64,000 nucleotides of DNA from Gemmataceae bacterium (GTDB lineage Bacteria > Planctomycetota > Planctomycetia > Gemmatales > Gemmataceae), in assembly GCA_025055795.1 (NCBI GenBank), contig JANWVV010000013.1, positions 24,755 to 88,754 on the forward strand. Reading direction: 5' to 3'. The position numbers and the translations under genes are program-made. A model generated the notes under the pieces. The model saw nothing but the letters and a program-made list of their open reading frames with translations. It did not search any database and was not told the origin of the DNA. Shown piece by piece: positions 2,320-60,309 of the stretch (position 1 is its first letter; each line of letters begins with the position of its first letter).

Positions 2320-4326
2320 TCAGGTTTTTTTGTGTCCCGTTAGAGATGAAGTAGGAGCGATTCTGAGCGTTTCTGATGGCCGTTGGGCTGCAGCTTCCGA
2401 GGGTGTTTCGGCCAGATAGCGGAGGTCGCCGTCGCGACGGGTCAGGCCGATACGGTCGAGATATTCGCACAGTGGCACCGCATATTTGCGGGTAGTACCG
2501 AGCAGATCGCGGATCTCCGCTACGGTCAGTCCTCCCCCTTGCTGCAGACGAGCGAGAATGCGGCGGCGCATTTCCGCTTCGGCCTCGGCAGCTAGATAGA
2601 GCTGATCGCTAATGTGGACTAGCAGTCCTTCGGCCACGGCCACTTCATAAATGTCTTTGAGGGCGTGGGCATTGCCACCGGCCTGGGAGACAAAGTCCTT
2701 GGGCTCGGGTGGCTGGAACGGCGCCGCCTGGTGAGCTGCGACAATGCGATCCTTCAGCTTGCGTTGATTGACACTCAGACGCGGTTTGAACTGGGCGTGA
2801 GCGATGCGGTGTGCGTCGCCTACTAGCTGACGATGAGCCAGCAAGCGATCGATCAAGGCCTGGACCAGATCAGCTTCACCCAACGAACCAAGTTGCGCTA
2901 CAACCTTCTGCCGGTCCAGACTGGTTAGCAACGGTTGCTGCTGATGCAAGTTCATCACCAGGGTCAGGACGCGTTGTTCGGCTTCCTCGATCCTTTGGGC
3001 ATGCAGCAAGCGGTAGCGACCATTGGGCAGAGTCAAGGCGATCAGCGTGCCTGCCCGTTGCAATTGTTCCTGCAACGTCTGGATTTGCGAGGGGGCGATG
3101 CCTGCGTCGCGGACGCCAGTGGTTCCGTCGATCCCCTCCAGACCGGCAAACCAGGCCACAGCCGCCAGACGTTGGGACGGCTCCGCTGATTCAAGCTTTT
3201 CCAGTTGCTCGATCATATCAATATGGCGGCGGCGGATTTTACGAGCGACCGGTTGCAGCACCCGTCCTCCCCCCAGGGTCCGGGTGGCTGCAGCGTCCCG
3301 TAAAACGAAAGGCTGTCCCCACACGGTGGTCACGGGGTGTTCCAGGAATAGTTGGGCCAGGGCAGTCGTGCCAGGTTGGACCGTATCGGTATCGAGCAGG
3401 GTCAGTGTGCCCATCACTTCAGCGGTGCCGACGTGTACACGGCAACTGAGACGGTGGCGCAAGCCACGAGTGTGGAAGGTCGTGGCCTCGACGCGGACGC
3501 TGAGCACCCGGCTGGGGCGCAGATAACCCGGCGTGAATAATTCCTGGCCGCGATGCACGGCCTCGTGAGGGACGCCCGCCAGGTTAATACCGGCCCGCTG
3601 GCCGCGATGCACTTCCGGGACCGGCCGACCATGATTGGTCAGGCCCCGCACGCGGACCCGCTCCACCACCCCATCCCCCCGGTGCCACTCCAGTTCATCG
3701 CCGACCCGCACCTGCCCCGAAGGGACCGATCCGGTTACCACTGTTCCGTGTCCCTGTACCACAAAGGCTCGGTCGATCGGCAGTCGGAACCAGTGCTGCT
3801 GGTCCGGCACGTTTACCTGGGCACAGAGCCGCTCCAACTCGACCTTCAGGCGGTCCAACCCTTCGCCCGTCACCACAGAAGTCGGCACGATCGGTGCATC
3901 TTCCAGGAATGTCCCCTGCAGCAGTTCACGAACTTCCATCAAAGCCACTTCGCGGGTGGTAGCGTCGACCAGGTCCACTTTGGTCAAAGCCACCAGGCCA
4001 TGGCGGATGCCCAACAGCTTGAGGATGGCCAGGTGTTCACGAGTCTGGGGCATGACCGAGTCGTCAGCGGCCACCACTAGCAGGGCCAGATCGATTCCCG
4101 TAGCTCCGGCCAGCATGTTGCGCACGAACCGCTCGTGGCCCGGTACGTCAACTATCCCCAGCCGGTATTCGCCGACCTCCAGATGAGCAAAGCCGATGTC
4201 GATAGTGATGCCACGGGCCTTTTCCTCAGGCAACCGGTCGCAATCGATGCCTGTCAAGGCCTTGATCAGCGACGTTTTTCCATGATCGATGTGACCAGCA
4301 GTACCCAGGATCAGATCACAGGGCAT
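2320..4326 (-). CDS. selB: Selenocysteine-specific translation elongation factor SelB
   Basis: [36 protein letters not shown] and C-terminal winged-helix motif [24 protein letters not shown]. Start placed at MPCDLILG (4326). Confidence 0.96.
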
Positions 4327-4620
4327 AATTCGTTCCTCGCTTGCCTGGCCCATTCCATTGTACTTCGACGACAATAACGCAACCGGCCCAGACTTGTTCC
4401 TATCGCTACCTTCAGGAACGCCAGGGCTATCCGCTTCGTTGCGTACAAACTGTTTTAAAGGATGGAGACTTACTACGCAGGAGCGAGGGAGGGGAGGGCC
4501 TTCCACTCGTTAACGGGCGTTGGCACAAACTGTCGCAGCGTGCTTCCGCTTGCGGGAATGTGTTCACCCTTGACAAAGCAAAGGGCAAAAGCGGTGTTGT
4601 AGTGATTGGGGGTGAGTCGC

Positions 4621-36779: not shown

Positions 36780-36853
36780 GCACCCGTAGCTCAACTGGAT
36801 AGAGCATCGGTCTTCGGAACCGAGGGTTGGGGGTTCGAGTCCCTCCGGGTGTA
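36780..36853 (+). tRNA. tRNA-Arg, anticodon TCG
   Basis: Acceptor stem GCACCCG/CGGGTGT, D arm GCTC..GAGC, anticodon arm TCGGT-CT-TCG-GA-ACCGA, T loop GTTCGAG. CCA is not encoded. Confidence 0.95.
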
Positions 36854-37531: not shown

Positions 37532-37606
37532 TCGGGGTGACAGGATTTGAACCTGCGACTTCGTGGTCCCAAACCACGCGCTCTAGCCAGGCTGAGCTAC
37601 ACCCCG
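37532..37606 (-). tRNA. tRNA-Pro, anticodon TGG
   Basis: Reverse complement reads CGGGGTGTAGCTCAGCCTGGCTAGAGCG-CGTGG-TT-TGG-GA-CCACG-AAGTCGCAGGTTCAAATCCTGTCACCCCGA. Confidence 0.95.
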
Positions 37607-48997: not shown

Positions 48998-49227
48998 TCT
49001 ATCCGCTGGACGCGTGACCCTGTGTGTCCGCGGTAATGTTCATCCTCTTTTTCTTCCCCTGTGTAACACAAAGATGACCGCAGACCGACGGATTCGACCT
49101 TGACGGGATCGAAAAACTCGTTATGGTGCCGCCTCACTGCTGGTATGCCTGCAGCGTTGTGGCCGGGACGTAGGGACCGCGTTTGGGGGAATACACCAGG
49201 CGGCCGGCAGGCACGGGAGGCCGGATA

Positions 49228-51285: not shown

Positions 51286-54200
51286 ATGCTATTACGATTA
51301 GAACTTGTCGGCTTCAAATCGTTTGCAGATAAAACCATATTTGAATTTGCTCCTGGTATTACAGCTATCGTTGGTCCAAACGGTTCTGGCAAAAGTAACG
51401 TCGTTGATGCCATCCGCTGGCTTTTGGGTGAGCAATCGATCCGCAGTTTGCGTGGCGGGGAAATGGCGGACGTGATCTTTCAAGGCTCCGCCAGACGCAA
51501 AAGCCTGGGAATGGCCGAAGTCAGCGTGCTTCTGGACAATCGCCGTCGCCTGCTGGCTGTCGATGCTGACCAGGTCCAGCTAACGCGACGCCTTTATCGC
51601 GACGGCAGCGGTGAGTATCTGATTAATCAGCAGCCGGCCCGACTGCGTGATTTCAAGGACATATTCCTCGGCAGCGGCACGGGGAGCAGCGGCTACACCA
51701 TCATCGCACAGGGCCGCGTCGAAGAATTGTTGCAAGCTTCTCCTTTGCAACGACGCGAGCTGTTGGATGAAGCTGCTGGCATCAGCCGGTTCAAAGCCCG
51801 TAAACAGGAGACCCTCCGCAAACTCAGTCAGGTAGAGGAACACCTGTCTCGTTCGCAAGACCGTCTCCAGCATCTGGAAGCCCAGCTACGCACCTGCCGA
51901 TTGCAAGCAGCCAAAGCTCAGAAATACCAGGAACATCAGCAACGGTTGCATGATTTGCGTCGTCGCTGGTATTCCTTCGAAGAGCGTCGCCTGGCTCAGG
52001 CTGTGGCGGAGCTGGAACAGGCCTTCCACCAAGCGGACCAGACCGCTGCCCAATTGCACCAGCAGTTTCAGCAGTCTCTGGCGACCGAGCAGACGGGAGA
52101 ACAACAACTCGAACATGCGGTCCAGCAACAGCATTTGCTGATCACAGAAGTCGCGGAAATCCGTCGACGCCTGGCGACGGAAGAAACGACTCTCCAGTAT
52201 CACCTCCAGCAATGGCAGGCGTTGGTAGAGGAGAAGCGGCAGTTGTCGCATCAGCGACTCCTCGCCGTACACTGTTGCTTCCAGCTCGAGCAGGACCGTC
52301 GGCAGCTAACAGAACAAGCAAACGCGACGGAAAATCGGGTGCAAACGGCCCGGGCCGAAGTTCAACAGTTGGAAACGGCCCTGCAAATGGTGCGTGATCG
52401 CCTTCAGGGCGCAGAGAGCCGTCTCAGTCGCTTACGAGACGAACAGTTCGAGGCTGTCCGCGTTGCCGCGGCAGCCCGTACAGCCGCCCACGCCGCCCTT
52501 GCACAGTTACAACGCCTTCAACACGAGCTCCAGCGGCGGCACACCGATACTGTCCAAACCGCTGCCCGGCGCCAGACTCTACAGGCGACCCTCGAGAGCT
52601 TAATCCATGCTGACCAAAATGCACAATCAGAATTGAATAAAATTGTTCAAATTTACAATGAATTAAATGTAAACAAAAAACAGCTGGAGGATAAAATTTC
52701 AAGTCTACAAGTAGAATTAGAACAAATGCGTATTCAGCATGGTGATTTGCGCGGACGTCTGGAATTGCTAGAAGAATGGGACCGTTCCCAAGTGGGAATC
52801 GAGGCGGCCGTCCGTGGACTATTGGAGGAACGTCAGCAACAGGCAGTGATCGGGAAACCTCATCCGTTGGTGGACCAGGTATTAGGTCTGGTAGCGGACC
52901 TGCTGCTCGTCCCGCGTGATTTGGCTCCGTTGGTAGACATGGCCTTGGGCGAAAAAGCCCAGTATCTTGTTGTTGCAGACGCTGCGGCCGTGCCGGAAAT
53001 CTTGCGCTGTCTGCCCAGTCATCTGCCGGGACGCATCGGTTTGATCCCCTTGCAGGGCCGCCCACTGGTTCCCACTCCGCAGGAAGAAGCTCCGTTTTCC
53101 TCACTGGCCAGCCATGTCCGCAGCTCGGTAGACAACCTGGCGCAGCAACTGTTGGGTGATATTTTGATCATAGACGATTGGGACCAGGCCTGTGCTACCC
53201 GCAGGCGTTTTCCGGCCTATCGCCTGGTGACCCGATCGGGGATCTTGTGGGAAACGGACGGAACGATCATCGTGGGCTCAGTGCGTGCCACTGGAGGTCT
53301 GGTATCGCGCAAAAGCGAATTGCGGGAGGTGCGTGAACAGCTCCGGCTACTGGTCGAGCAGATCCGTCGGCAGGAGCAACATCTCGGTGAACTCGAGCAA
53401 TCCCTAGAGCGTCTGACCGCGGAGGTGGTTGCCGCCGAACAACGCCGGATCGAATGGGAAAAACGAGCTGCAGAGGCGCGGCAACAACTCGATAAGCATC
53501 GACAAATTATCGAACAACTGGACGAACGATGGAATCTAATCAATCAGGAAACACATTATCTGGAAGAAGAACTGCTACGTACCGAAAAAGCCTGGTTGGA
53601 AGCTAACCAGCAAGCGGACCATGCTGAACAAGCAGCGGAGCGGATTCACCGGCAGATCGCTCAGCAGGAGCAACTATTGCGGGATGGCGAGGCTGAGCTG
53701 GAACGCTTGCGGGAGCGTCATCAGGCGGCCCAGGTGGCATTATCGCAGGCTTTGAGTGAAAGCGAGCAGTTCCGTGATCGTCTGACAAGAGTGGACGAAG
53801 AGGTGCGTCGCTGCCAAGACCAGGCCCATACGGTCCAAATCGCTGTACAGACCGTCCAACAGAGACATGACGAATTGCTCTTGGGTATCCTGCAACTGGA
53901 ATCGCAGGTGGCTGAACTGTATACGGAAAAAGACCGGCTGGAATTACAGGTCGATGCCCTCCAGCGGCAACAAGAAGCTCATCGACTGGAGGCGGCTCAA
54001 CGCCGGTCACACCTGCAGCGTCTGCAACAGCAACTGGAACAAGCACAGAAGCAACGCCATCATTTGGAACTACGACTGCGTGAACTTCAAGGTCAACGAT
54101 TTCACTTGCATCAAAAAGTCAAGGAAGAATTGAATGTTGAGCCCCAAGAACTGTTGAACGATCATTCCCTCGAGTCGGAGAGTAGAGCCGATGCGAACGA

Positions 54201-54873
54201 GGATGTTCTACACTTGCTCCAGGAAATAGAAGAAGTCAAAAGTCGGATTGCTCGCCTTGGTGCGGTTAATCTCGAAGCATTGGAACAGTTGCAGGGTTTG
54301 GAAAAAGAATATCAGCAGTATCTGAACCAGCATCAGGATCTGGAGCAGGCCCGGCGGTCTCTTGTGGAAATCATGGAACAGCTCAACGGCGACAGCCGCA
54401 AGCTGTTTATGGAAACGTTAACTGCGGTGCGCGGTCATTTCCAGGAACTGTTCCGCAAACTGTTTGGAGGCGGGCAGGCGGACATTGTTGTGGAAAATGA
54501 AGCTGAGGTTCTGGAAAGCGGCATCGAGATTGTTGCGCGACCACCGGGGAAAGAGCTACGCTCGTTGACGTTGTTATCGGGTGGCGAGAAGACACTCACA
54601 GCCATCGCCTTGCTGCTGGCGATGTTTCGCGCCCGGCCCAGCCCGTTTTGCATTCTCGATGAGGTCGATGCGGCCCTCGATGAAACGAATACTGTTCGCC
54701 TGGCATCGCTACTCCGGGAATTTCTTGACACCAGTCAGTTTATCATCGTTACTCACAAAAAACGAATGATGGCCGTGGCCGACCGTCTCTGGGGAGTGAC
54801 GATGACCGAACAGGGCGTTAGCCGTATCCTACCGTTGCGATTTGAAGATTGGGAATCCGCCCAGGCTGCATGA
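51286..54873 (+). CDS. smc: Chromosome segregation protein SMC
   Basis: GFKSFAD, VGPNGSGKSNVVDA, long coiled coils, hinge, LSGGEK, LDEVDAALD. Confidence 0.97.
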   Translation: MLLRLELVGFKSFADKTIFEFAPGITAIVGPNGSGKSNVVDAIRWLLGEQSIRSLRGGEMADVIFQGSARRKSLGMAEVSVLLDNRRRLLAVDADQVQLTRRLYRDGSGEYLINQQPARLRDFKDIFLGSGTGSSGYTIIAQGRVEELLQASPLQRRELLDEAAGISRFKARKQETLRKLSQVEEHLSRSQDRLQHLEAQLRTCRLQAAKAQKYQEHQQRLHDLRRRWYSFEERRLAQAVAELEQAFHQADQTAAQLHQQFQQSLATEQTGEQQLEHAVQQQHLLITEVAEIRRRLATEETTLQYHLQQWQALVEEKRQLSHQRLLAVHCCFQLEQDRRQLTEQANATENRVQTARAEVQQLETALQMVRDRLQGAESRLSRLRDEQFEAVRVAAAARTAAHAALAQLQRLQHELQRRHTDTVQTAARRQTLQATLESLIHADQNAQSELNKIVQIYNELNVNKKQLEDKISSLQVELEQMRIQHGDLRGRLELLEEWDRSQVGIEAAVRGLLEERQQQAVIGKPHPLVDQVLGLVADLLLVPRDLAPLVDMALGEKAQYLVVADAAAVPEILRCLPSHLPGRIGLIPLQGRPLVPTPQEEAPFSSLASHVRSSVDNLAQQLLGDILIIDDWDQACATRRRFPAYRLVTRSGILWETDGTIIVGSVRATGGLVSRKSELREVREQLRLLVEQIRRQEQHLGELEQSLERLTAEVVAAEQRRIEWEKRAAEARQQLDKHRQIIEQLDERWNLINQETHYLEEELLRTEKAWLEANQQADHAEQAAERIHRQIAQQEQLLRDGEAELERLRERHQAAQVALSQALSESEQFRDRLTRVDEEVRRCQDQAHTVQIAVQTVQQRHDELLLGILQLESQVAELYTEKDRLELQVDALQRQQEAHRLEAAQRRSHLQRLQQQLEQAQKQRHHLELRLRELQGQRFHLHQKVKEELNVEPQELLNDHSLESESRADANEDVLHLLQEIEEVKSRIARLGAVNLEALEQLQGLEKEYQQYLNQHQDLEQARRSLVEIMEQLNGDSRKLFMETLTAVRGHFQELFRKLFGGGQADIVVENEAEVLESGIEIVARPPGKELRSLTLLSGGEKTLTAIALLLAMFRARPSPFCILDEVDAALDETNTVRLASLLREFLDTSQFIIVTHKKRMMAVADRLWGVTMTEQGVSRILPLRFEDWESAQAA

Positions 54874-55267
54874 AATTTAAAGTCCAGAGTCAATGTCAAT
54901 TTTAACAAAATTATGTCTAGGACCGTTCTGCGTTATTCAGGATGTTGGCGGCCCTCGGCGGAAGGCGGTGTCTTATGTTCGGGCTGGATCACTTTCAGCT
55001 AGCTAAGAACTGAGCATTTCCTGGGAGAGCATCCCATCAGACACGTTGTTTTCGAGATGGTCAGTGGTCAGAAGGCTCACCAGTGTTTTACGGCTTTTTA
55101 GCCGGACCTTCATGATTCGGTTATAGTGTAAACTTTGGTAGCATGAAAAGTTGCACTCCAGGTGCGGTCAGGCGGCCTCGGGCAGGGGACAATCCATGGG
55201 TGAGATGATCGGATTATCATCCCAAAGTGGTATGGCGGTTGCTAACATGACCATAGGGGGAGCAACG

Positions 55268-56002
55268 ATGCCACAACCACGGATTTTAATCATCGAGGAT
55301 GAGCGTGGTTTGACCCAGTCGTTGTCGTGGTATTTCAACCGTGAGGGATATGAAACACATGTTGCTCATGATGGTCAGGAAGGATTGCGTAAGGCCCAAA
55401 CCTTGCTGCCGGATGTAGTGCTGCTCGATCTGATGCTGCCCGGCATGGATGGCCTGGAAGTTTGCCGGTTATTACGGGCAGGGGATCGTACAAAAGATAT
55501 TCCCATCATAATGATAACGGCCAAGACGGAGGAAACGGACCAGGTTGTGGGTTACTCGATGGGGGCGGACGACTACGTTGCCAAGCCCTTCAGTAACAAG
55601 GTGTTGTTGCACAAAGTAAAGGCATTGCTGCGTCGGGTAGCCGGTCAGAGCGAAGCAGGGGACGTCATCGAGCATTTGGGCGTGCGGATCGACCGATTGC
55701 GTCACCGGGCCACGCTACATGGCAAAACACTGCTGTTGACACCGACGGAGTTTCGTCTGCTGGAAACCTTAGTGCGTCAGCCGGGACGGGCATTCAGCCG
55801 CCATCAGTTGATGGATGCTGCCATTGGAGAGGGGTCAATCGTTCTCGAACGAACGATCGACGTTCACATTAAGACCTTACGGCGTAAATTGGCAGAGGCC
55901 GGCGGCAGCCCCGAATTGATCGAAACAGTGCGGGGTGTTGGCTACCGCTTCCGAGAGGAGGCACCACCGTCGTCAACCACGCCGGCCGAGAGTAGAGGAT
56001 GA
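55268..56002 (+). CDS. OmpR/PhoB-family response regulator
   Basis: ILIIEDE, LLDLMLPGMDG, GADDYVAKPF, LTPTEFRLL, ERTIDVHI, ETVRGVGYRF. Confidence 0.95.
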   Translation: MPQPRILIIEDERGLTQSLSWYFNREGYETHVAHDGQEGLRKAQTLLPDVVLLDLMLPGMDGLEVCRLLRAGDRTKDIPIIMITAKTEETDQVVGYSMGADDYVAKPFSNKVLLHKVKALLRRVAGQSEAGDVIEHLGVRIDRLRHRATLHGKTLLLTPTEFRLLETLVRQPGRAFSRHQLMDAAIGEGSIVLERTIDVHIKTLRRKLAEAGGSPELIETVRGVGYRFREEAPPSSTTPAESRG

Positions 56003-56935: not shown

Positions 56936-57490
56936 CTACTTCTGTTTGGCCAGGGCTTCTTCCGCAGCTTTGGCGATTTCTGCCGCCTTGGCAGCAGCAC
57001 TTTTAGTGTCGCGGAAGGCAAAGTTGCGGAAAATGTTCCCTCCCCGCGTGTAAATCAACACGGTAACAGCCGCTTCTTTGTTCAAATTGTAGCGTTTGGG
57101 ACCGTCTTTTTCGACAGACACGGTCAATGGCGTCGTCAGTTTGTGGGTGGCTTGAAGTTTTTCGAAGTCGGCGGTTTCGACTCCGCTGACGCCTACGACC
57201 ACCGTGCCCAGATCGGCGTGAGTTTTCTGCACCGCGTCTACCGCCTTGACCAAACTGGCCAAGTCGTCGTCAGCCTTCTGGGTGAAGATCATCACCACGG
57301 CAGGCCGACCTTCGCCATTGTACTTTCAGACATAGCACATTGTGCGGCCTTTGTTCTCGCCGGTGACAACCTTAACGTCAAAGGCGCCACCGATCTTTTT
57401 GTCTGGTCCGGACTTGATGTCGTCCGCGACACACACGCCCGGCAGGGTCAGCGTGGCCAGCGCCAACCCCAGCCCGAAGGCTCGACGCAT
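56936..57490 (-). CDS. Candidate exported thioredoxin-like selenoprotein (CxxU; in-frame TGA at 57328-57326 = codon 55)
   Basis: AGGAGG RBS and ATG at 57490. Reads MRRAFGLGLALATLTLPGVCVA-DDIKSGPDKKIGGAFDVKVVTGENKGRTMCYV(TGA)KYNGEGRPAVVMIFTQK, continuing in frame into the listed 56936..57298 ORF. A hairpin follows the TGA and selB is present in the window. Confidence 0.85.
57293..57322 (-). promoter_or_regulatory. Candidate bacterial SECIS element
   Basis: mRNA after UGA: AAG-UAC-A-AUGGC-GA-AGG-UCGG-CCU-GCCGU-G-GUG. The stems pair by eye, and the apical loop starts 17 nt after the UGA. Confidence 0.6.
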
Positions 57491-57892: not shown

Positions 57893-59557
57893 TCAGTAGG
57901 ATGGTTCGAACGGCGGGAGGCGGTCCCACCCGCGGAAACCGTGGGCAATCCAGATGGTCCAGCTTTGCAAGGGTACACCGTTGTGGACGTAGGTAAACCG
58001 TTGGGGCATCTCGATCCGTTCAAAGGCGGGTAGCAAATGAGGGCCGATGTCTCCTACAATCAGGAAAGTTCGACCGCGGAACAGATGCGGATCTGCAACG
58101 GGGTTGGGTCGCCAGAAGTCGTACTGGCTGTGGCGGTCGGAGCGGTTGGGGATGCCGATGGTATACGTATCTGGGTGACCCCGACTGTAGAAGCGTAGAA
58201 GACCTGGATGAGTCCAGTATGTGCCACACAAAACTGGAGGCAAGGCTTGCGGAGGGGTCAACTGCTCCCGCAACAGATCCAGGTGGTTGGCTAAGGCCTT
58301 CCAGCCAGCCAGGCGGGCTGTCAGGTCCAAGCGGCGGACGGGGGCAGGCTCCCGTTCGGACGGTGGTGGCAGGATGCGGGCCAACACGGGACGATACAGC
58401 TGTGGAAAATGCAATAGCACTACGGCAATCAAACCCAAAGTCGAATTAGCAATTGCGGCCACGGCCACCTCTCGACGGTACTTTCCCCACTGCAGATAAT
58501 CCACTAGCCAGGCAACGGTAAGAACAAAGCCGGCAATGTATGCAGGAGCGGGCCAATTCGCCTGACCGGGTTTCAGACAACTAGCCAGTCCGAAAAACAA
58601 CCACAAAGGGAAGGAAGCCCACCACAGCAGCCGCACAGCGGGTGCCCCGTCACGCCACGGGCTGAATTTCCAAGCAGCGACCAGAAAAGCCAGTAGCCAC
58701 AGACCGAACATGGTGCCCAACTGGCCGCCCAGGAACAGCACAGGTCCGTTCAGGCGAAAACGACTACCCGCTTGCTGTCCCACAGCCGCCACCTGTCCGA
58801 GAACATGCCGGACGCTTACCCAATCATGCTGGGCATTCCAGTACACGATTGGCAGCAGGCCCACCACGGTTCCTGCATACAAAAGTCCCAGACCTCGCCA
58901 ACCATCTTTGTGGCGGTAATGGAACAGGACGAAGAGGGTGACGACGGCGGGAAACAATAACATTGTATATTTAGCTAGCACTCCCACGGCTGTAGCTATC
59001 GCGGCTATCCCCCAGGCCCAGCGGCGGCCCCGCAACCCCCACAAAACAGCCAGCAACGCCCAACACCAGCAAGCCAGGAAGGGAGGATCGATGGTCATCA
59101 GGATGGCCCCGATGCGTACCAGCGGAATGCACACGGCCAACCCCACAACGCTCAATGCCAGCGTGGCGGATCGGAAAACATTGACCGTAAGCAGGTACCA
59201 GCCTGTCAGCAAAAGGGCATGGCACAGGGCCGCCGGAAAACGGACTGCTGCCGCCCGATCGCCCCTCCAGGCAATGCTCCACATTCCCAACACTTCGTCC
59301 GCACCGCGGATCAGCCAAGCAACTAGCGGCCCTTTACTGTAATAGCTCCAATCGAGTTGCCGGGACCAATCCCAGTAGTGGGCTTCGTCCGGTGCCAGAT
59401 CGTGTACAGGTGAAAGCCACTGGTAGGCCACCGTCAAGAGAGTGGACGTCACAATCAGAGCAGCAGCGGTCCACCCAGCCCACCGGCACGTGGCTGGAGC
59501 CAGGCCCGGTGTGCTCGAAGCACCTGCCGATGAGACACGTCGCTCGGTTGATGCCAT
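57893..59557 (-). CDS. GT39/ArnT-like GT-C glycosyltransferase
   Basis: DLAPDEAHYWDWSRQLDWSYYSKGPLVAW, MTIDPP, LAKYTM, PIVYWNAQHDWVS.RH. Confidence 0.88.
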   Translation of the reverse strand: MASTERRVSSAGASSTPGLAPATCRWAGWTAAALIVTSTLLTVAYQWLSPVHDLAPDEAHYWDWSRQLDWSYYSKGPLVAWLIRGADEVLGMWSIAWRGDRAAAVRFPAALCHALLLTGWYLLTVNVFRSATLALSVVGLAVCIPLVRIGAILMTIDPPFLACWCWALLAVLWGLRGRRWAWGIAAIATAVGVLAKYTMLLFPAVVTLFVLFHYRHKDGWRGLGLLYAGTVVGLLPIVYWNAQHDWVSVRHVLGQVAAVGQQAGSRFRLNGPVLFLGGQLGTMFGLWLLAFLVAAWKFSPWRDGAPAVRLLWWASFPLWLFFGLASCLKPGQANWPAPAYIAGFVLTVAWLVDYLQWGKYRREVAVAAIANSTLGLIAVVLLHFPQLYRPVLARILPPPSEREPAPVRRLDLTARLAGWKALANHLDLLREQLTPPQALPPVLCGTYWTHPGLLRFYSRGHPDTYTIGIPNRSDRHSQYDFWRPNPVADPHLFRGRTFLIVGDIGPHLLPAFERIEMPQRFTYVHNGVPLQSWTIWIAHGFRGWDRLPPFEPSY

Positions 59558-60309
59558 CGACCACAAGTAAAGAGATCTGCTCGTCACGTTGGCTCCTTGC
59601 TATCCATCGGCTTCGTTTAATTGGACGGGGTCCGCTCTAGTGGCCTGTGTATGGCTACTAGGATCTTAGGATTGGCCTGTCGCGTGCCTTTGATTTCAAC
59701 GGGCATCCGAGTCGTCCGTACCGGCGTCATCTCCTTGCTCCGCAAAACAAATACATGCCGGAAAAAGGGGAATGACGTCAATCCCGACAGCCCAGCATCC
59801 ACCACCCCGAACAAACCGATTTGTTGAGCTATTTGATGAATTGATGATCGATTCAAGTGGTCTTGAAACCCCTATCGCAGTCGCTGTTGGTCGATCAAAG
59901 AGAACCCGACGTAAGCAAGGGCAGCAAAAATCGTTCATTCTCTGACCCAAAGGTTAGAAAGTGTACTTCTGGGTAGATTATTGATGACCACATGGGTACA
60001 TCAGTTCAAAAAGCCTAATCGATTGGCATAGCTGGTGCGATGGACTGCAACACCTCAGATGCTCTTTTCCCGGTTACCGCAGTTTGTTATGTCTCGCTTT
60101 TTGGGATGCATCGAATGTGGTTACCCTGGTGGGAACTGGGTTGACCTGAGACTTTGTTCCCAAAAGTGGGACAGAGGTCAGAAACCATGGGGCACAACGG
60201 AAGCCGGCGTGGCAACCTTGGCTGGTATAGGCCGGGCTGGAACAAGGGATGCACTCTCGGAGGTGCCAACAGTAATTGGCCAGCCTCTTGCGATTGCGAC
60301 TGGCTGTTC

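What the first reader, a model, noticed from the sequence alone, without database searches (positions are those of the whole stretch)
57293..57328. SECIS-like hairpin immediately 3' of the in-frame UGA
Seen: stems UAC/GUG, AUGGC/GCCGU and AGG/CCU close a UCGG loop, with a GA bulge and an A.G mismatch. The loop begins 17 nt after the UGA, and the apical region contains AGGUC, as in the E. coli fdhF SECIS apex. An alternative small fold (CGA-AGG-UCG) would expose GG in the loop. Established: bacterial SECIS elements lie directly 3' of the UGA and have an apical G. The loop G position here is not textbook, so it may be a lineage-specific variant.
Basis: partly seen in the sequence, partly recalled or inferred. 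Interest (0 to 1): 0.65.

Follow-up and report, generated by a model that had tools for sequence, protein, structure and literature searches.

The report
Distant SECIS bridged by spacer hairpin
The UGA is a genuine selenocysteine codon in a secreted thioredoxin-fold protein, but the flagged hairpin is probably not its insertion signal; the likely signal is an invariant hairpin about 65 nt further on, which a folded spacer hairpin appears to bring back to the usual distance.

Summary
The gene lies on the minus strand (57490..56936). It has an in-frame UGA at 57328-57326 in a C-Y-V-U motif. The genome carries tRNA-Sec, selA, selB (in this window) and selD, and homologs have Cys at this codon.

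- It folds no better than shuffled sequence (z -0.69).
- Its pairs have about zero probability in the folding ensemble.
- Its apical pairs hold in only about half of the Sec orthologs.
- Its loop UCGG lacks the G required in the first two positions.

What is conserved is a 19-nt hairpin, CUUGRCC-AGUYU-GGUCAAG (57263-57245). It occurs in 37 of 43 Sec forms across two subfamilies with 33-41% protein identity, and in none of 31 Cys forms. It has the same design as the SECIS of two other selenoprotein genes in this genome (18 nt, a 7-bp stem, a loop starting AG[G/U]U).

Here the hairpin sits 62 nt after the UGA. A hairpin with a covarying closing pair (57309-57269) occupies the gap and leaves about 18 unpaired nt in most orthologs (12 or 21 in this gene).

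My reading is a composite, long-range bacterial SECIS, a new variant of a known kind. All evidence is computational.

The parts
56936..57490 (-). Selenoprotein gene: 184 codons plus stop, with a signal peptide, a C-Y-V-U motif at residues 52-55 and a Bcp/PrxQ/ResA/TlpA-like thioredoxin fold.
   Evidence: Translation with TGA=U. Homologs are full-length with CYVC. Pfam gives only a weak AhpC-TSA hit and NCBIfam gives none. AF2 model pLDDT 85.5, with Foldseek PDB hits to Bcp1, ResA and DsbE-like proteins.
57326..57328 (-). In-frame UGA, codon 55, read as Sec.
   Evidence: At least 43 orthologs across about 35 genomes of the family carry TGA at this codon, and 31 paralogs or orthologs carry TGC/TGT. 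The genome has tRNA-Sec, selA, selB and selD.
57293..57322 (-). It can be drawn but is probably not functional, and its 3' half belongs to hairpin B.
   Evidence: z -0.69. Pair probabilities about 0. Apical pairs kept in 9-14 of 21 orthologs. The loop has no G in its first two positions.
57269..57309 (-). Spacer hairpin B, nt +17 to +57 after the UGA. The lower stem is GUCGGCCU/AGGCUGAC and the apex is GGUGA-UGAUCU-UCACC.
   Evidence: -22.1 kcal/mol, z -4.1, with 1 of 200 shuffles as good. Pair probabilities are 0.9 or higher. An equivalent hairpin is present in both subfamilies despite different sequence and length, 44 versus 35 nt. The closing pair covaries in the distant subfamily (17/20 paired, 4 pair types, permutation p<1e-5).
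57245..57263 (-). Hairpin C: CUUGGCC-AGUUU-GGUCAAG, a 7-bp stem with the loop at 57256-57252. Proposed SelB-binding SECIS hairpin. It encodes (D)-L-A-S-L-V-K at the start of helix alpha1.
   Evidence: -9.9 kcal/mol, z -3.2, 0 of 200 shuffles as good. Pair probabilities are 0.97 or higher. Present in 37/43 Sec forms and 0/31 Cys forms. Third-codon-position entropy is 0 at all 7 codons. It has the same design as the two canonical SECIS of this genome. A same-type 19-mer (stem A-U for G.U, loop GGUCU) sits at canonical distance in another selenoprotein gene.
2320..4506 (-). selB, the Sec-specific elongation factor and the trans-acting partner of the SECIS.
   Evidence: TIGR00475 scores 392.7 bits against a cut-off of 242 at G000:C44:27170-29065, which is window 2416-4311. 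ORF listed.

Best explanation
The UGA at 57328-57326 encodes selenocysteine in a secreted thioredoxin-fold CxxU protein of a Gemmataceae bacterium.

The SelB-binding SECIS is not the flagged proximal hairpin. It is hairpin C (57263-57245): a 7-bp stem CUUGGCC/GGUCAAG with loop AGUUU, whose stem starts 62 nt after the UGA.

Most of the sequence between the UGA and C folds into spacer hairpin B (57309-57269). In the commonest predicted fold across orthologs, B leaves 16 unpaired nt on its 5' side and 2 nt on its 3' side. That total of 18 nt equals the single-stranded spacer that separates the UGA from the 7-bp SECIS stem in the other selenoprotein genes of this lineage. In this gene's own predicted fold the total is 12 or 21 nt, depending on two weak outer pairs.

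When the ribosome has the UGA in its A site, B would still be folded outside the mRNA entrance. C, with SelB-GTP-Sec-tRNASec bound, would then sit where a canonical SECIS sits.

Shown here:
- The invariance and Sec-specificity of C.
- The design C shares with other SECIS of the lineage.
- The conservation of B and the covariation of its closing pair.
- The 18-nt unpaired-path arithmetic across orthologs.

Inferred: SelB binding to C, persistence of B at the ribosome entrance, and the through-space equivalence.
For: (1) Sec codon. The genome has tRNA-Sec (73.9 bits; ARAGORN SeC, anticodon tca), selB, selA and selD. Homologs have Cys exactly at the UGA position. TGA is conserved at this codon in many genomes.

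(2) Hairpin C is Sec-specific and invariant.
- Present in 17/22 close and 20/21 distant Sec forms (33-41% protein identity to the query), and in 0/19 and 0/12 Cys forms.
- Third-position entropy is 0.0 at its 7 codons against 0.49-1.24 in Cys forms, and rises to 0.7-1.9 immediately 3' of it.
- A G.U pair is kept in 21/21 close forms and is A-U in most distant forms. This fits RNA on the sense strand, not a DNA palindrome.

(3) Same design as the lineage's canonical SECIS.
- The FwdB-like gene has 18 nt, a 7-bp covarying stem and loop AGUU in 30/30 orthologs.
- The Thioredoxin_7-PDZ gene has 18 nt, a 7-bp covarying stem and a loop starting AGGU in 12/14 orthologs, GGGU in the other two.
- A genome-wide scan found 74 such hairpins. 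Exactly 3 lie 12-100 nt 3' of an in-frame TGA in a coding-like frame: those two genes (spacer 18) and the target (spacer 62).

(4) A 19-mer of the same type (CUUGACC-GGUCU-GGUCAAG) lies 17 nt after an in-frame UGA in an unrelated secreted Redoxin gene of another Planctomycetota family, with no spacer hairpin.

(5) Hairpin B.
- z -4.1 and pair probability 0.9 or higher.
- The distant-subfamily B+C structure is 94.7% paired, against 28-46% when slid.
- The closing pair shows 4 pair types, permutation p<1e-5.
- The unpaired path falls in 16-20 nt for 28/37 Sec forms (mode 18), against 0/19 and 2/12 Cys controls.

(6) Plausibility. SECIS grafted onto 16S rRNA helix h16 supports Sec insertion in E. 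coli, so spatial position matters rather than mRNA continuity (PMC10945757). From my own knowledge, Su, Li and Gladyshev 2005 (NAR 33:2486) made a 3'-UTR SECIS work in E. coli by looping out the intervening RNA. The citation is confirmed, but the text was not held.
Against: - No experiment exists. Nothing here shows SelB binding or read-through.
- Linear spacing from the UGA to the loop is 69 nt, outside the 16-37 nt of the bacterial SECIS model.
- In this gene and its same-genus ortholog, the MFE register of B gives an unpaired path of 12 nt with two weak outer pairs, or 21 nt without them, rather than exactly 18.
- A few orthologs give 24-43 nt.
- Covariation statistics in the close subfamily are weak, because the sequences are very similar and coding.
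- Orthologs are not independent samples.
- Six Sec forms lack a perfect hairpin C and must use something else.
Confidence: 0.62

Rival explanations
1. The reader's proximal hairpin A (57322-57293) is the functional SECIS, a lineage-specific variant with loop UCGG. Hairpin C then serves another purpose.
For: It lies at canonical distance, with the loop 17 nt after the UGA, and has MFE -8.6 kcal/mol, which passes the -7.5 threshold. Four close Sec forms that lack hairpin C (L037, L038a/b, L048) have a longer hairpin at the same position with apex GGCC-CGUG(C/U)-GGCC, so a proximal SECIS exists in one sub-clade. The 3' arm GCC GUG GUG is constrained at synonymous sites.
Against: No G in the first two loop positions. 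z -0.69. Pair probability about 0 in context. Apical pairs hold in only 9-14 of 21 orthologs, and the 5'-arm Gly codon varies freely. It does not match the genome's SECIS signature of a 7-bp stem plus a loop starting AG[G/U]U. With the UGA in the A site, most of its 5' arm (nt +4 to +12) would lie inside the ribosome; this last point is inference.
Confidence: 0.07
2. Hairpin C is the SelB-binding SECIS and acts from 62-69 nt away without needing hairpin B. B would then be incidental folding of G+C-rich coding sequence.
For: All the evidence that C is the SECIS applies. G+C-rich Cys forms also fold stably in this segment, with mean -19 against -22 kcal/mol. This gene's own path length (12 or 21 nt) is not exactly 18.
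Against: B keeps the same boundaries in two subfamilies with different sequence and length. Its closing pair covaries (p<1e-5). The unpaired path clusters at 16-20 nt in 28/37 Sec forms against 2/31 Cys forms. Sec forms avoid the Arg codon CGC that Cys forms use in 18/19 cases, as B's stem pairing requires. From my own knowledge, spacing is strictly constrained in E. coli (Heider 1992; Liu 1998).
Confidence: 0.15
3. The apex of hairpin B (GGUGA-UGAUCU-UCACC, loop starting 34 nt after the UGA) is the SECIS, and C is an accessory or stabilising element.
For: The loop start at +34 lies inside the 16-37 nt range, and the loop has G at its second position. The hairpin is stable and is present in most close orthologs.
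Against: The loop sequence is not conserved: UGAUCU, GUGAUCU, UCGUCU, UCU in close forms and CNCG in distant forms. It has no AG[G/U]U motif. Cys forms can form the same apex, since it follows from coding V-V-x-I-F-T. This reading does not explain the invariance of C.
Confidence: 0.07
4. Hairpin C is conserved for a reason unrelated to Sec decoding, such as mRNA stability, a binding site for another protein or sRNA, or a DNA-level operator.
For: No direct evidence for SelB binding. The distance from the UGA is unusual.
Against: Strict association with the UGA (37/43 against 0/31). A same-type hairpin occurs at canonical distance behind a UGA in another gene. The design is shared with other SECIS of the lineage. 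The conserved G.U pair argues for sense-strand RNA and against a DNA palindrome.
Confidence: 0.05

Closest known systems
Canonical bacterial SECIS (E. coli fdhF type; consensus model of Zhang and Gladyshev 2005 as summarised in PMC13188914)
   Same: A stem-loop inside the coding region 3' of the Sec-UGA. A small apical loop with G followed by U in its first positions (AGUUU). A 7-bp upper stem. Presumed SelB binding site. Cys homologs exist at the UGA position.
   Different: The loop starts 69 nt (62 nt to the stem) after the UGA instead of 16-37 nt. A separate 41-44 nt hairpin is interposed. The arrangement is conserved across two deep subfamilies.
SECIS of the other selenoprotein genes of the same lineage (FwdB-like molybdopterin protein at G000 C268; Thioredoxin_7-PDZ protein at G000 C213)
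   Same: A 7-bp stem with a 4-5 nt loop beginning AG followed by G or U. About 18 unpaired nt between the UGA and the stem, once hairpin B is counted as folded.
   Different: In those genes the 18 nt are contiguous. In the target they are split 16+2 (close subfamily) or 17+1 (distant subfamily) around hairpin B.
Engineered long-range bacterial SECIS: the 3'-UTR SECIS in E. coli (Su, Li, Gladyshev 2005, NAR 33:2486; from my own knowledge, text not held) and SECIS-16S rRNA h16 fusions (PMC10945757)
   Same: The principle that the SECIS hairpin must be near the ribosomal mRNA entrance in space, not at a fixed linear distance. Intervening RNA can be looped out.
   Different: Those are laboratory constructs. 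This would be a natural, evolutionarily conserved instance within an ORF.
Archaeal and eukaryotic 3'-UTR SECIS
   Same: Acts at a distance from the UGA.
   Different: A different structure (kink-turn or GAA_A motifs), different binding proteins and a UTR location. Nothing of that kind is seen here.

Membership tests
   The loop is UCGG, so the first two positions are U and C. Rule quoted from PMC13188914.
   17 nt and -8.6 kcal/mol. However, it is no better than shuffles (z -0.69) and absent from the ensemble.
   Apical pairs are kept in 9-14 of 21 orthologs, and the third base of the 5'-arm Gly codon varies freely.
Bacterial SECIS (bSECIS consensus), tested on hairpin C | [quoted passage not shown] | tested here: met
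   Loop AGUUU (AGUCU or GGUCU in orthologs), a 7-bp stem, and -8.2 to -9.9 kcal/mol with z -3.2.
Bacterial SECIS (bSECIS consensus), tested on hairpin C | Spacing of 16-37 nt between the UGA and the apical loop | tested here: not met
   69 nt linear in this gene and 60 nt in the distant subfamily. With hairpin B folded the unpaired path to the loop is about 25 nt in the modal ortholog fold (19 or 28 nt in this gene), but that is a model, not the defined criterion.
Bacterial SECIS (bSECIS consensus), tested on hairpin C | Conserved among Sec forms and absent from Cys forms | tested here: met
   37/43 against 0/31. Zero third-position entropy.
Bacterial SECIS (any) | Specific binding by SelB and requirement for UGA read-through | not testable with these tools
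   Needs a gel shift or ITC with SelB, plus reporter or 75Se assays.
Bacterial selenoprotein gene | The genome encodes tRNA-Sec, SelA, SelB and SelD | tested here: met
   All score above the curated cut-offs.
Bacterial selenoprotein gene | The in-frame UGA aligns with Cys in homologs at a redox motif | tested here: met
   CYV-U against CYVC in 14 of 14 aligned homologs. This is a CxxU motif in a thioredoxin-fold protein.
Peroxiredoxin / TlpA-like thioredoxin fold (AhpC-TSA, Redoxin) | Sequence membership above the Pfam gathering score; active-site Cys at the start of helix alpha1 | tested here: not met
   AhpC-TSA scores 16.5 bits against a cut-off of 26. The fold matches (Foldseek E 3e-8, target-normalised TM up to 0.76), but the canonical loop reads T-Q-K-A-D-D with no Cys, and the CxxU lies about 20 residues upstream.

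The most novel reading that the evidence does not exclude
This is a natural composite bacterial SECIS. An ancient, sequence-invariant SelB-binding hairpin sits 60-69 nt from the UGA, and a covarying 'looped-out' coding hairpin restores the lineage's 18-nt single-stranded spacing.

A possible origin is that the Sec codon moved about 15-18 codons upstream from the canonical peroxiredoxin active-site loop while the SECIS stayed in helix alpha1. The codon six positions before stem C, where another Planctomycetota Redoxin gene has its UGA in front of a same-type hairpin, is now Thr or Ala.

If true, bacterial Sec decoding depends on through-space rather than linear distance. The 16-37 nt search rule would then miss a class of selenoprotein genes.
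Probability: 0.5. Interest if true: 0.75.

Novelty: new variant of a known kind. Interest (0 to 1): 0.62.

Why it matters
Bacterial selenoprotein genes are found by looking for a hairpin 16-37 nt after a UGA. A conserved natural case in which the SelB-type hairpin lies about 65 nt away, brought back by a structured spacer, would have three consequences.

- Search rules would miss such genes. This one carries no Pfam or NCBIfam family, its UGA splits the reading frame under the standard code, and it is widespread in Gemmataceae.
- It would be a natural counterpart to the engineered 'looped-out' and ribosome-tethered SECIS designs used to make recombinant selenoproteins.
- It would be a tractable system for asking how strictly SelB delivery depends on geometry at the mRNA entrance.

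It also documents three selenoprotein families and a sharp SECIS signature (18 nt, 7 bp, a loop starting AG[G/U]U) for Gemmataceae.

Tried and rejected
- A codon log-odds scan for other TGA-interrupted genes was too noisy and missed the target. A hexamer model recovered the target and two further genes among many false positives. These were then confirmed independently by the hairpin-signature scan.
- My first pair count for hairpin C was mis-indexed by one column (6.8% paired). It should be ignored; one search is the corrected count.
- Two registers for the lower stem of B do not give a single consensus in the close subfamily. Per-sequence MFE was more informative.
- C-like hairpins at canonical distance behind TGA within Gemmataceae occur at chance level (10 hits against 6 for the reversed control).
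- BLASTP between the target and the L145 Redoxin selenoprotein is not significant. The 'migrated Sec codon' scenario therefore stays speculative.
- For the six Sec forms without a perfect hairpin C, I found only tentative alternatives: GGCC-CGUGY-GGCC at +18, GCGGC-CGU(A/U)-GUCGU at +26, and UUUGCC-CGUGA-GGCAAA at +36. These are not resolved.
- The texts of Su et al. 2005 and Liu et al. 1998 are not held.

Full report
**1. The observation**

The gene is on the minus strand, 57490..56936 (184 codons). A GGAGG ribosome-binding site lies upstream, followed by a signal peptide. An in-frame TGA at 57328-57326 (codon 55) sits in the motif C-Y-V-U.

That drawing is the MFE of the isolated 30-mer (-8.6 kcal/mol). 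However, 37 of 200 dinucleotide shuffles fold as well (z -0.69). In the context of the 63 or 90 nt after the UGA, a different fold wins.

**2. The UGA is a Sec codon**

- The genome (4.41 Mb, 268 contigs; the window is C44:24755-88754) has tRNA-Sec (73.9 bits; ARAGORN SeC, anticodon tca).
- It has selB, which lies in this window at about 2416-4311 on the minus strand.
- It has selA and selD. All of these score above the curated cut-offs.
- 817 database homologs were found. The 14 I aligned are full-length and carry CYVC.
- A six-frame search of 252 genomes of the same family shows many orthologs with one in-frame TGA at this codon, often in tandem with a Cys paralog. The relatives are named Gemmata, Frigoriglobus and Gemmataceae.
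- A second subfamily at 33-41% identity (motif C-[LQ]-[VI]-U) also carries the TGA.
- The protein has no Pfam or NCBIfam membership. It models confidently (pLDDT 85.5) as a Bcp/PrxQ/ResA/TlpA-like thioredoxin fold.

**3. What is conserved downstream of the UGA**

I aligned the 96 nt after the UGA from 22 close and 21 distant Sec forms and from 31 Cys forms.

One element stands out: CUUG(G/A)CC-(A/G)GU(U/C)U-GGUCAAG, a 7-bp stem with a 5-nt loop.
- It is present in 17/22 close Sec forms and 20/21 distant Sec forms, and in none of the 31 Cys forms. The Cys forms encode similar residues there (L-V-T-V-V-K, L-T-K-L-I-K) with free codon choice.
- In 16 close Sec forms the third-position entropy is 0.0 at all seven codons of the hairpin, against 0.49-1.24 in Cys forms. 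It returns to 0.7-1.9 immediately 3' of the hairpin.
- The hairpin uses otherwise rare codons (UUG Leu, AGU Ser).
- A G.U pair is kept in 21/21 close forms and is A-U in most distant forms. This points to sense-strand RNA rather than a DNA palindrome.

In the window this hairpin C is 57263-57245. It folds at -9.9 kcal/mol with z -3.2 (0 of 200 shuffles as good) and pair probabilities of 0.97 or higher.

An ML tree of the 74 proteins has two subfamilies separated by 2.57 substitutions per site.
- In both subfamilies the Sec forms with hairpin C are basal and the Cys forms are nested clades.
- The element therefore looks ancestral.
- The four close Sec forms that lack it form one clade.

**4. 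Hairpin C has the SECIS design of this lineage**

A coding-potential scan of the genome found two more TGA-interrupted genes:
- A Thioredoxin_7-PDZ protein with C-E-P-U at the redox motif.
- An FwdB-like molybdopterin protein with ...SHTSL-U-HGP.

Both have 18 nt and then a perfect 7-bp stem, with loop AGGUG or AGUU. The design is conserved with stem covariation in their orthologs: loop AGUU in 30/30 FwdB-like genes, and a loop starting AGGU in 12/14 Trx7-PDZ genes, GGGU in the other two.

A signature scan of the whole genome looked for a 7-bp stem with at most 2 G.U pairs and a loop AG[G/U]U(N). It finds 74 hairpins on both strands. Exactly three lie 12-100 nt 3' of an in-frame TGA in a coding-like frame: those two genes (spacer 18) and the target (spacer 62).

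Among 300 other Planctomycetota genomes, the 19-mer pattern (with its R and Y positions) occurs only twice, and both times behind an in-frame TGA.
- One hit is a homolog of the target family.
- The other is a different secreted Redoxin/AhpC-TSA gene (...VVLAFWNGDIPC-U-GGPGPYLTGLVK...). There a hairpin of the same type (CUUGACC-GGUCU-GGUCAAG) begins 17 nt after the UGA with nothing interposed, so it acts as an ordinary proximal SECIS.

**5. The gap is filled by a conserved spacer hairpin**

Hairpin C starts 62 nt (close subfamily) or 53 nt (distant subfamily) after the UGA. That puts the loop at +69 or +60, outside the 16-37 nt of the model.

In nearly all Sec forms that have C, the MFE of the intervening segment is dominated by one hairpin B. 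It is 44 nt long in the close subfamily and 35 nt in the distant one, with different sequences. It begins at nt +17 or +18 and ends 1-2 nt before C.

In this gene B is 57309-57269. It folds at -22.1 kcal/mol with z -4.1 and pair probabilities of 0.9 or higher.

Support from the distant subfamily:
- The B+C structure is 94.7% paired, against 28-46% when the partners are slid.
- B's closing pair joins the synonymous third base of a Pro codon to the first base of a variable codon. It is paired in 17/20 forms with four pair types (CG 6, UA 6, GU 3, GC 2), permutation p<1e-5. Cys controls pair in 4/12.

Support from the close subfamily:
- Sec forms use Arg CGU or CGG, with CGC in 1/16. Cys forms use CGC in 18/19. 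This is what B's stem GUCGUC/GACGAC requires.

The unpaired path (UGA to B, plus B to C) falls in 16-20 nt for 28 of 37 Sec forms, with mode 18 (16 forms). The Cys controls give 0/19 and 2/12. Eighteen nt is exactly the spacer of the lineage's canonical SECIS.

In this gene and its same-genus ortholog, the register gives 12 nt with two weak outer pairs, or 21 nt without them.

**6. Mechanism proposed**

The proposed element is a composite SECIS.
- C binds SelB.
- B is a structured spacer that stays folded outside the mRNA entrance while the UGA is in the A site. B starts 16 nt after the UGA, and about 10-11 nt are inside the ribosome.
- C is therefore presented where a canonical SECIS would be.

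This step is inference. Two lines make it plausible. SECIS fused to 16S rRNA h16 works in E. coli (PMC10945757). From my own knowledge, a 3'-UTR SECIS works in E. coli when the intervening RNA is looped out (Su et al. 2005; citation confirmed, text not held).

The synonymous constraint on GCC GUG GUG is shared by both drawings, but the free Gly codon in A's 5' arm and the poorly kept apical pairs speak against A.

**7. Caveats**

- Everything here is computational, and the orthologs are phylogenetically related.
- Covariation in the close subfamily is weak.
- Six Sec forms lack a perfect C. Four of them carry a long proximal hairpin with apex GGCC-CGUGY-GGCC at +18.
- The suggested origin is speculative. 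Under it, the Sec codon moved upstream from the canonical peroxiredoxin loop while the SECIS stayed in helix alpha1. The codon six positions before stem C is Thr or Ala here and UGA in the L145 gene.

**8. Comparison and verdict**

Sec decoding in Planctomycetes, including Gemmata, and FmdB-type selenoproteins are known (PMC4807772). A recent review notes that some bacterial SECIS do not fit the consensus model. I found no description of a natural bacterial SECIS displaced by a conserved spacer hairpin.

- What is really there is a new variant of a known kind.

Noticed in passing
G000 C268, TGA at 0-based position 49096 (+); outside the window: An unannotated FwdB-like (formylmethanofuran or molybdopterin dehydrogenase subunit B-like) selenoprotein gene, ...DSHTSL-U-HGPTE.... 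Its SECIS is GCUGCCC-AGUU-GGGUGGC, 18 nt after the UGA. The TGA is conserved in about 50 of 121 Gemmataceae genomes, and Cys forms occur in others.
   Followed up: partly
G000 C213, TGA at 0-based position 109269 (+); outside the window: An unannotated Thioredoxin_7 plus two PDZ domains selenoprotein, ...FLVFRCEP-U-LDC.... Its SECIS is GACGCAC-AGGUG-GUGCGUC, 18 nt after the UGA. It is conserved with stem covariation in 14 orthologs.
   Followed up: partly
window 2320-4506 (-): selB lies in the same window, about 53 kb from the selenoprotein gene. The stop-to-stop ORF is 728 aa, longer than the 581-position TIGR00475 model, so there may be an N-terminal extension or a later true start.
   Followed up: no
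loci L021, L026, L027, L039, L040 (other Gemmataceae genomes); G000 C198:8541-9062: Sec and Cys paralogs of this protein often sit in tandem on the same strand, 100-700 nt apart. In this genome the Cys paralog (69% identity) is on another contig. The tree suggests the Cys forms derive from a Sec ancestor.
   Followed up: partly
L145 (G342:C183, Planctomycetota family f59), around 1268-2365: A secreted Redoxin/AhpC-TSA selenoprotein (...FWNGDIPC-U-GGPGPYLTGLVK...) uses the hairpin CUUGACC-GGUCU-GGUCAAG as a proximal SECIS (17-nt spacer). The Sec is adjacent to a Cys (C-U) rather than in a CxxU motif.
   Followed up: partly
L037, L038 (two copies), L048, L053: These Sec forms of the family lack hairpin C. 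Four have a long proximal hairpin with apex GGCC-CGUG(C/U)-GGCC at +18, and L053 has UUUGCC-CGUGA-GGCAAA at +36. This looks like SECIS turnover within one gene family.
   Followed up: partly
window 36780-36853 (+) and 37532-37606 (-): Two ordinary tRNA genes are the only Rfam gathering-score hits in the window.
   Followed up: no
window 51286-54873 (+), 55151-56002 (+), 57893-59587 (-): Neighbouring ORFs, judged from their translations only: an SMC-like chromosome segregation ATPase, an OmpR-type response regulator, and a large polytopic membrane protein that resembles an ArnT/PMT-type glycosyltransferase.
   Followed up: no
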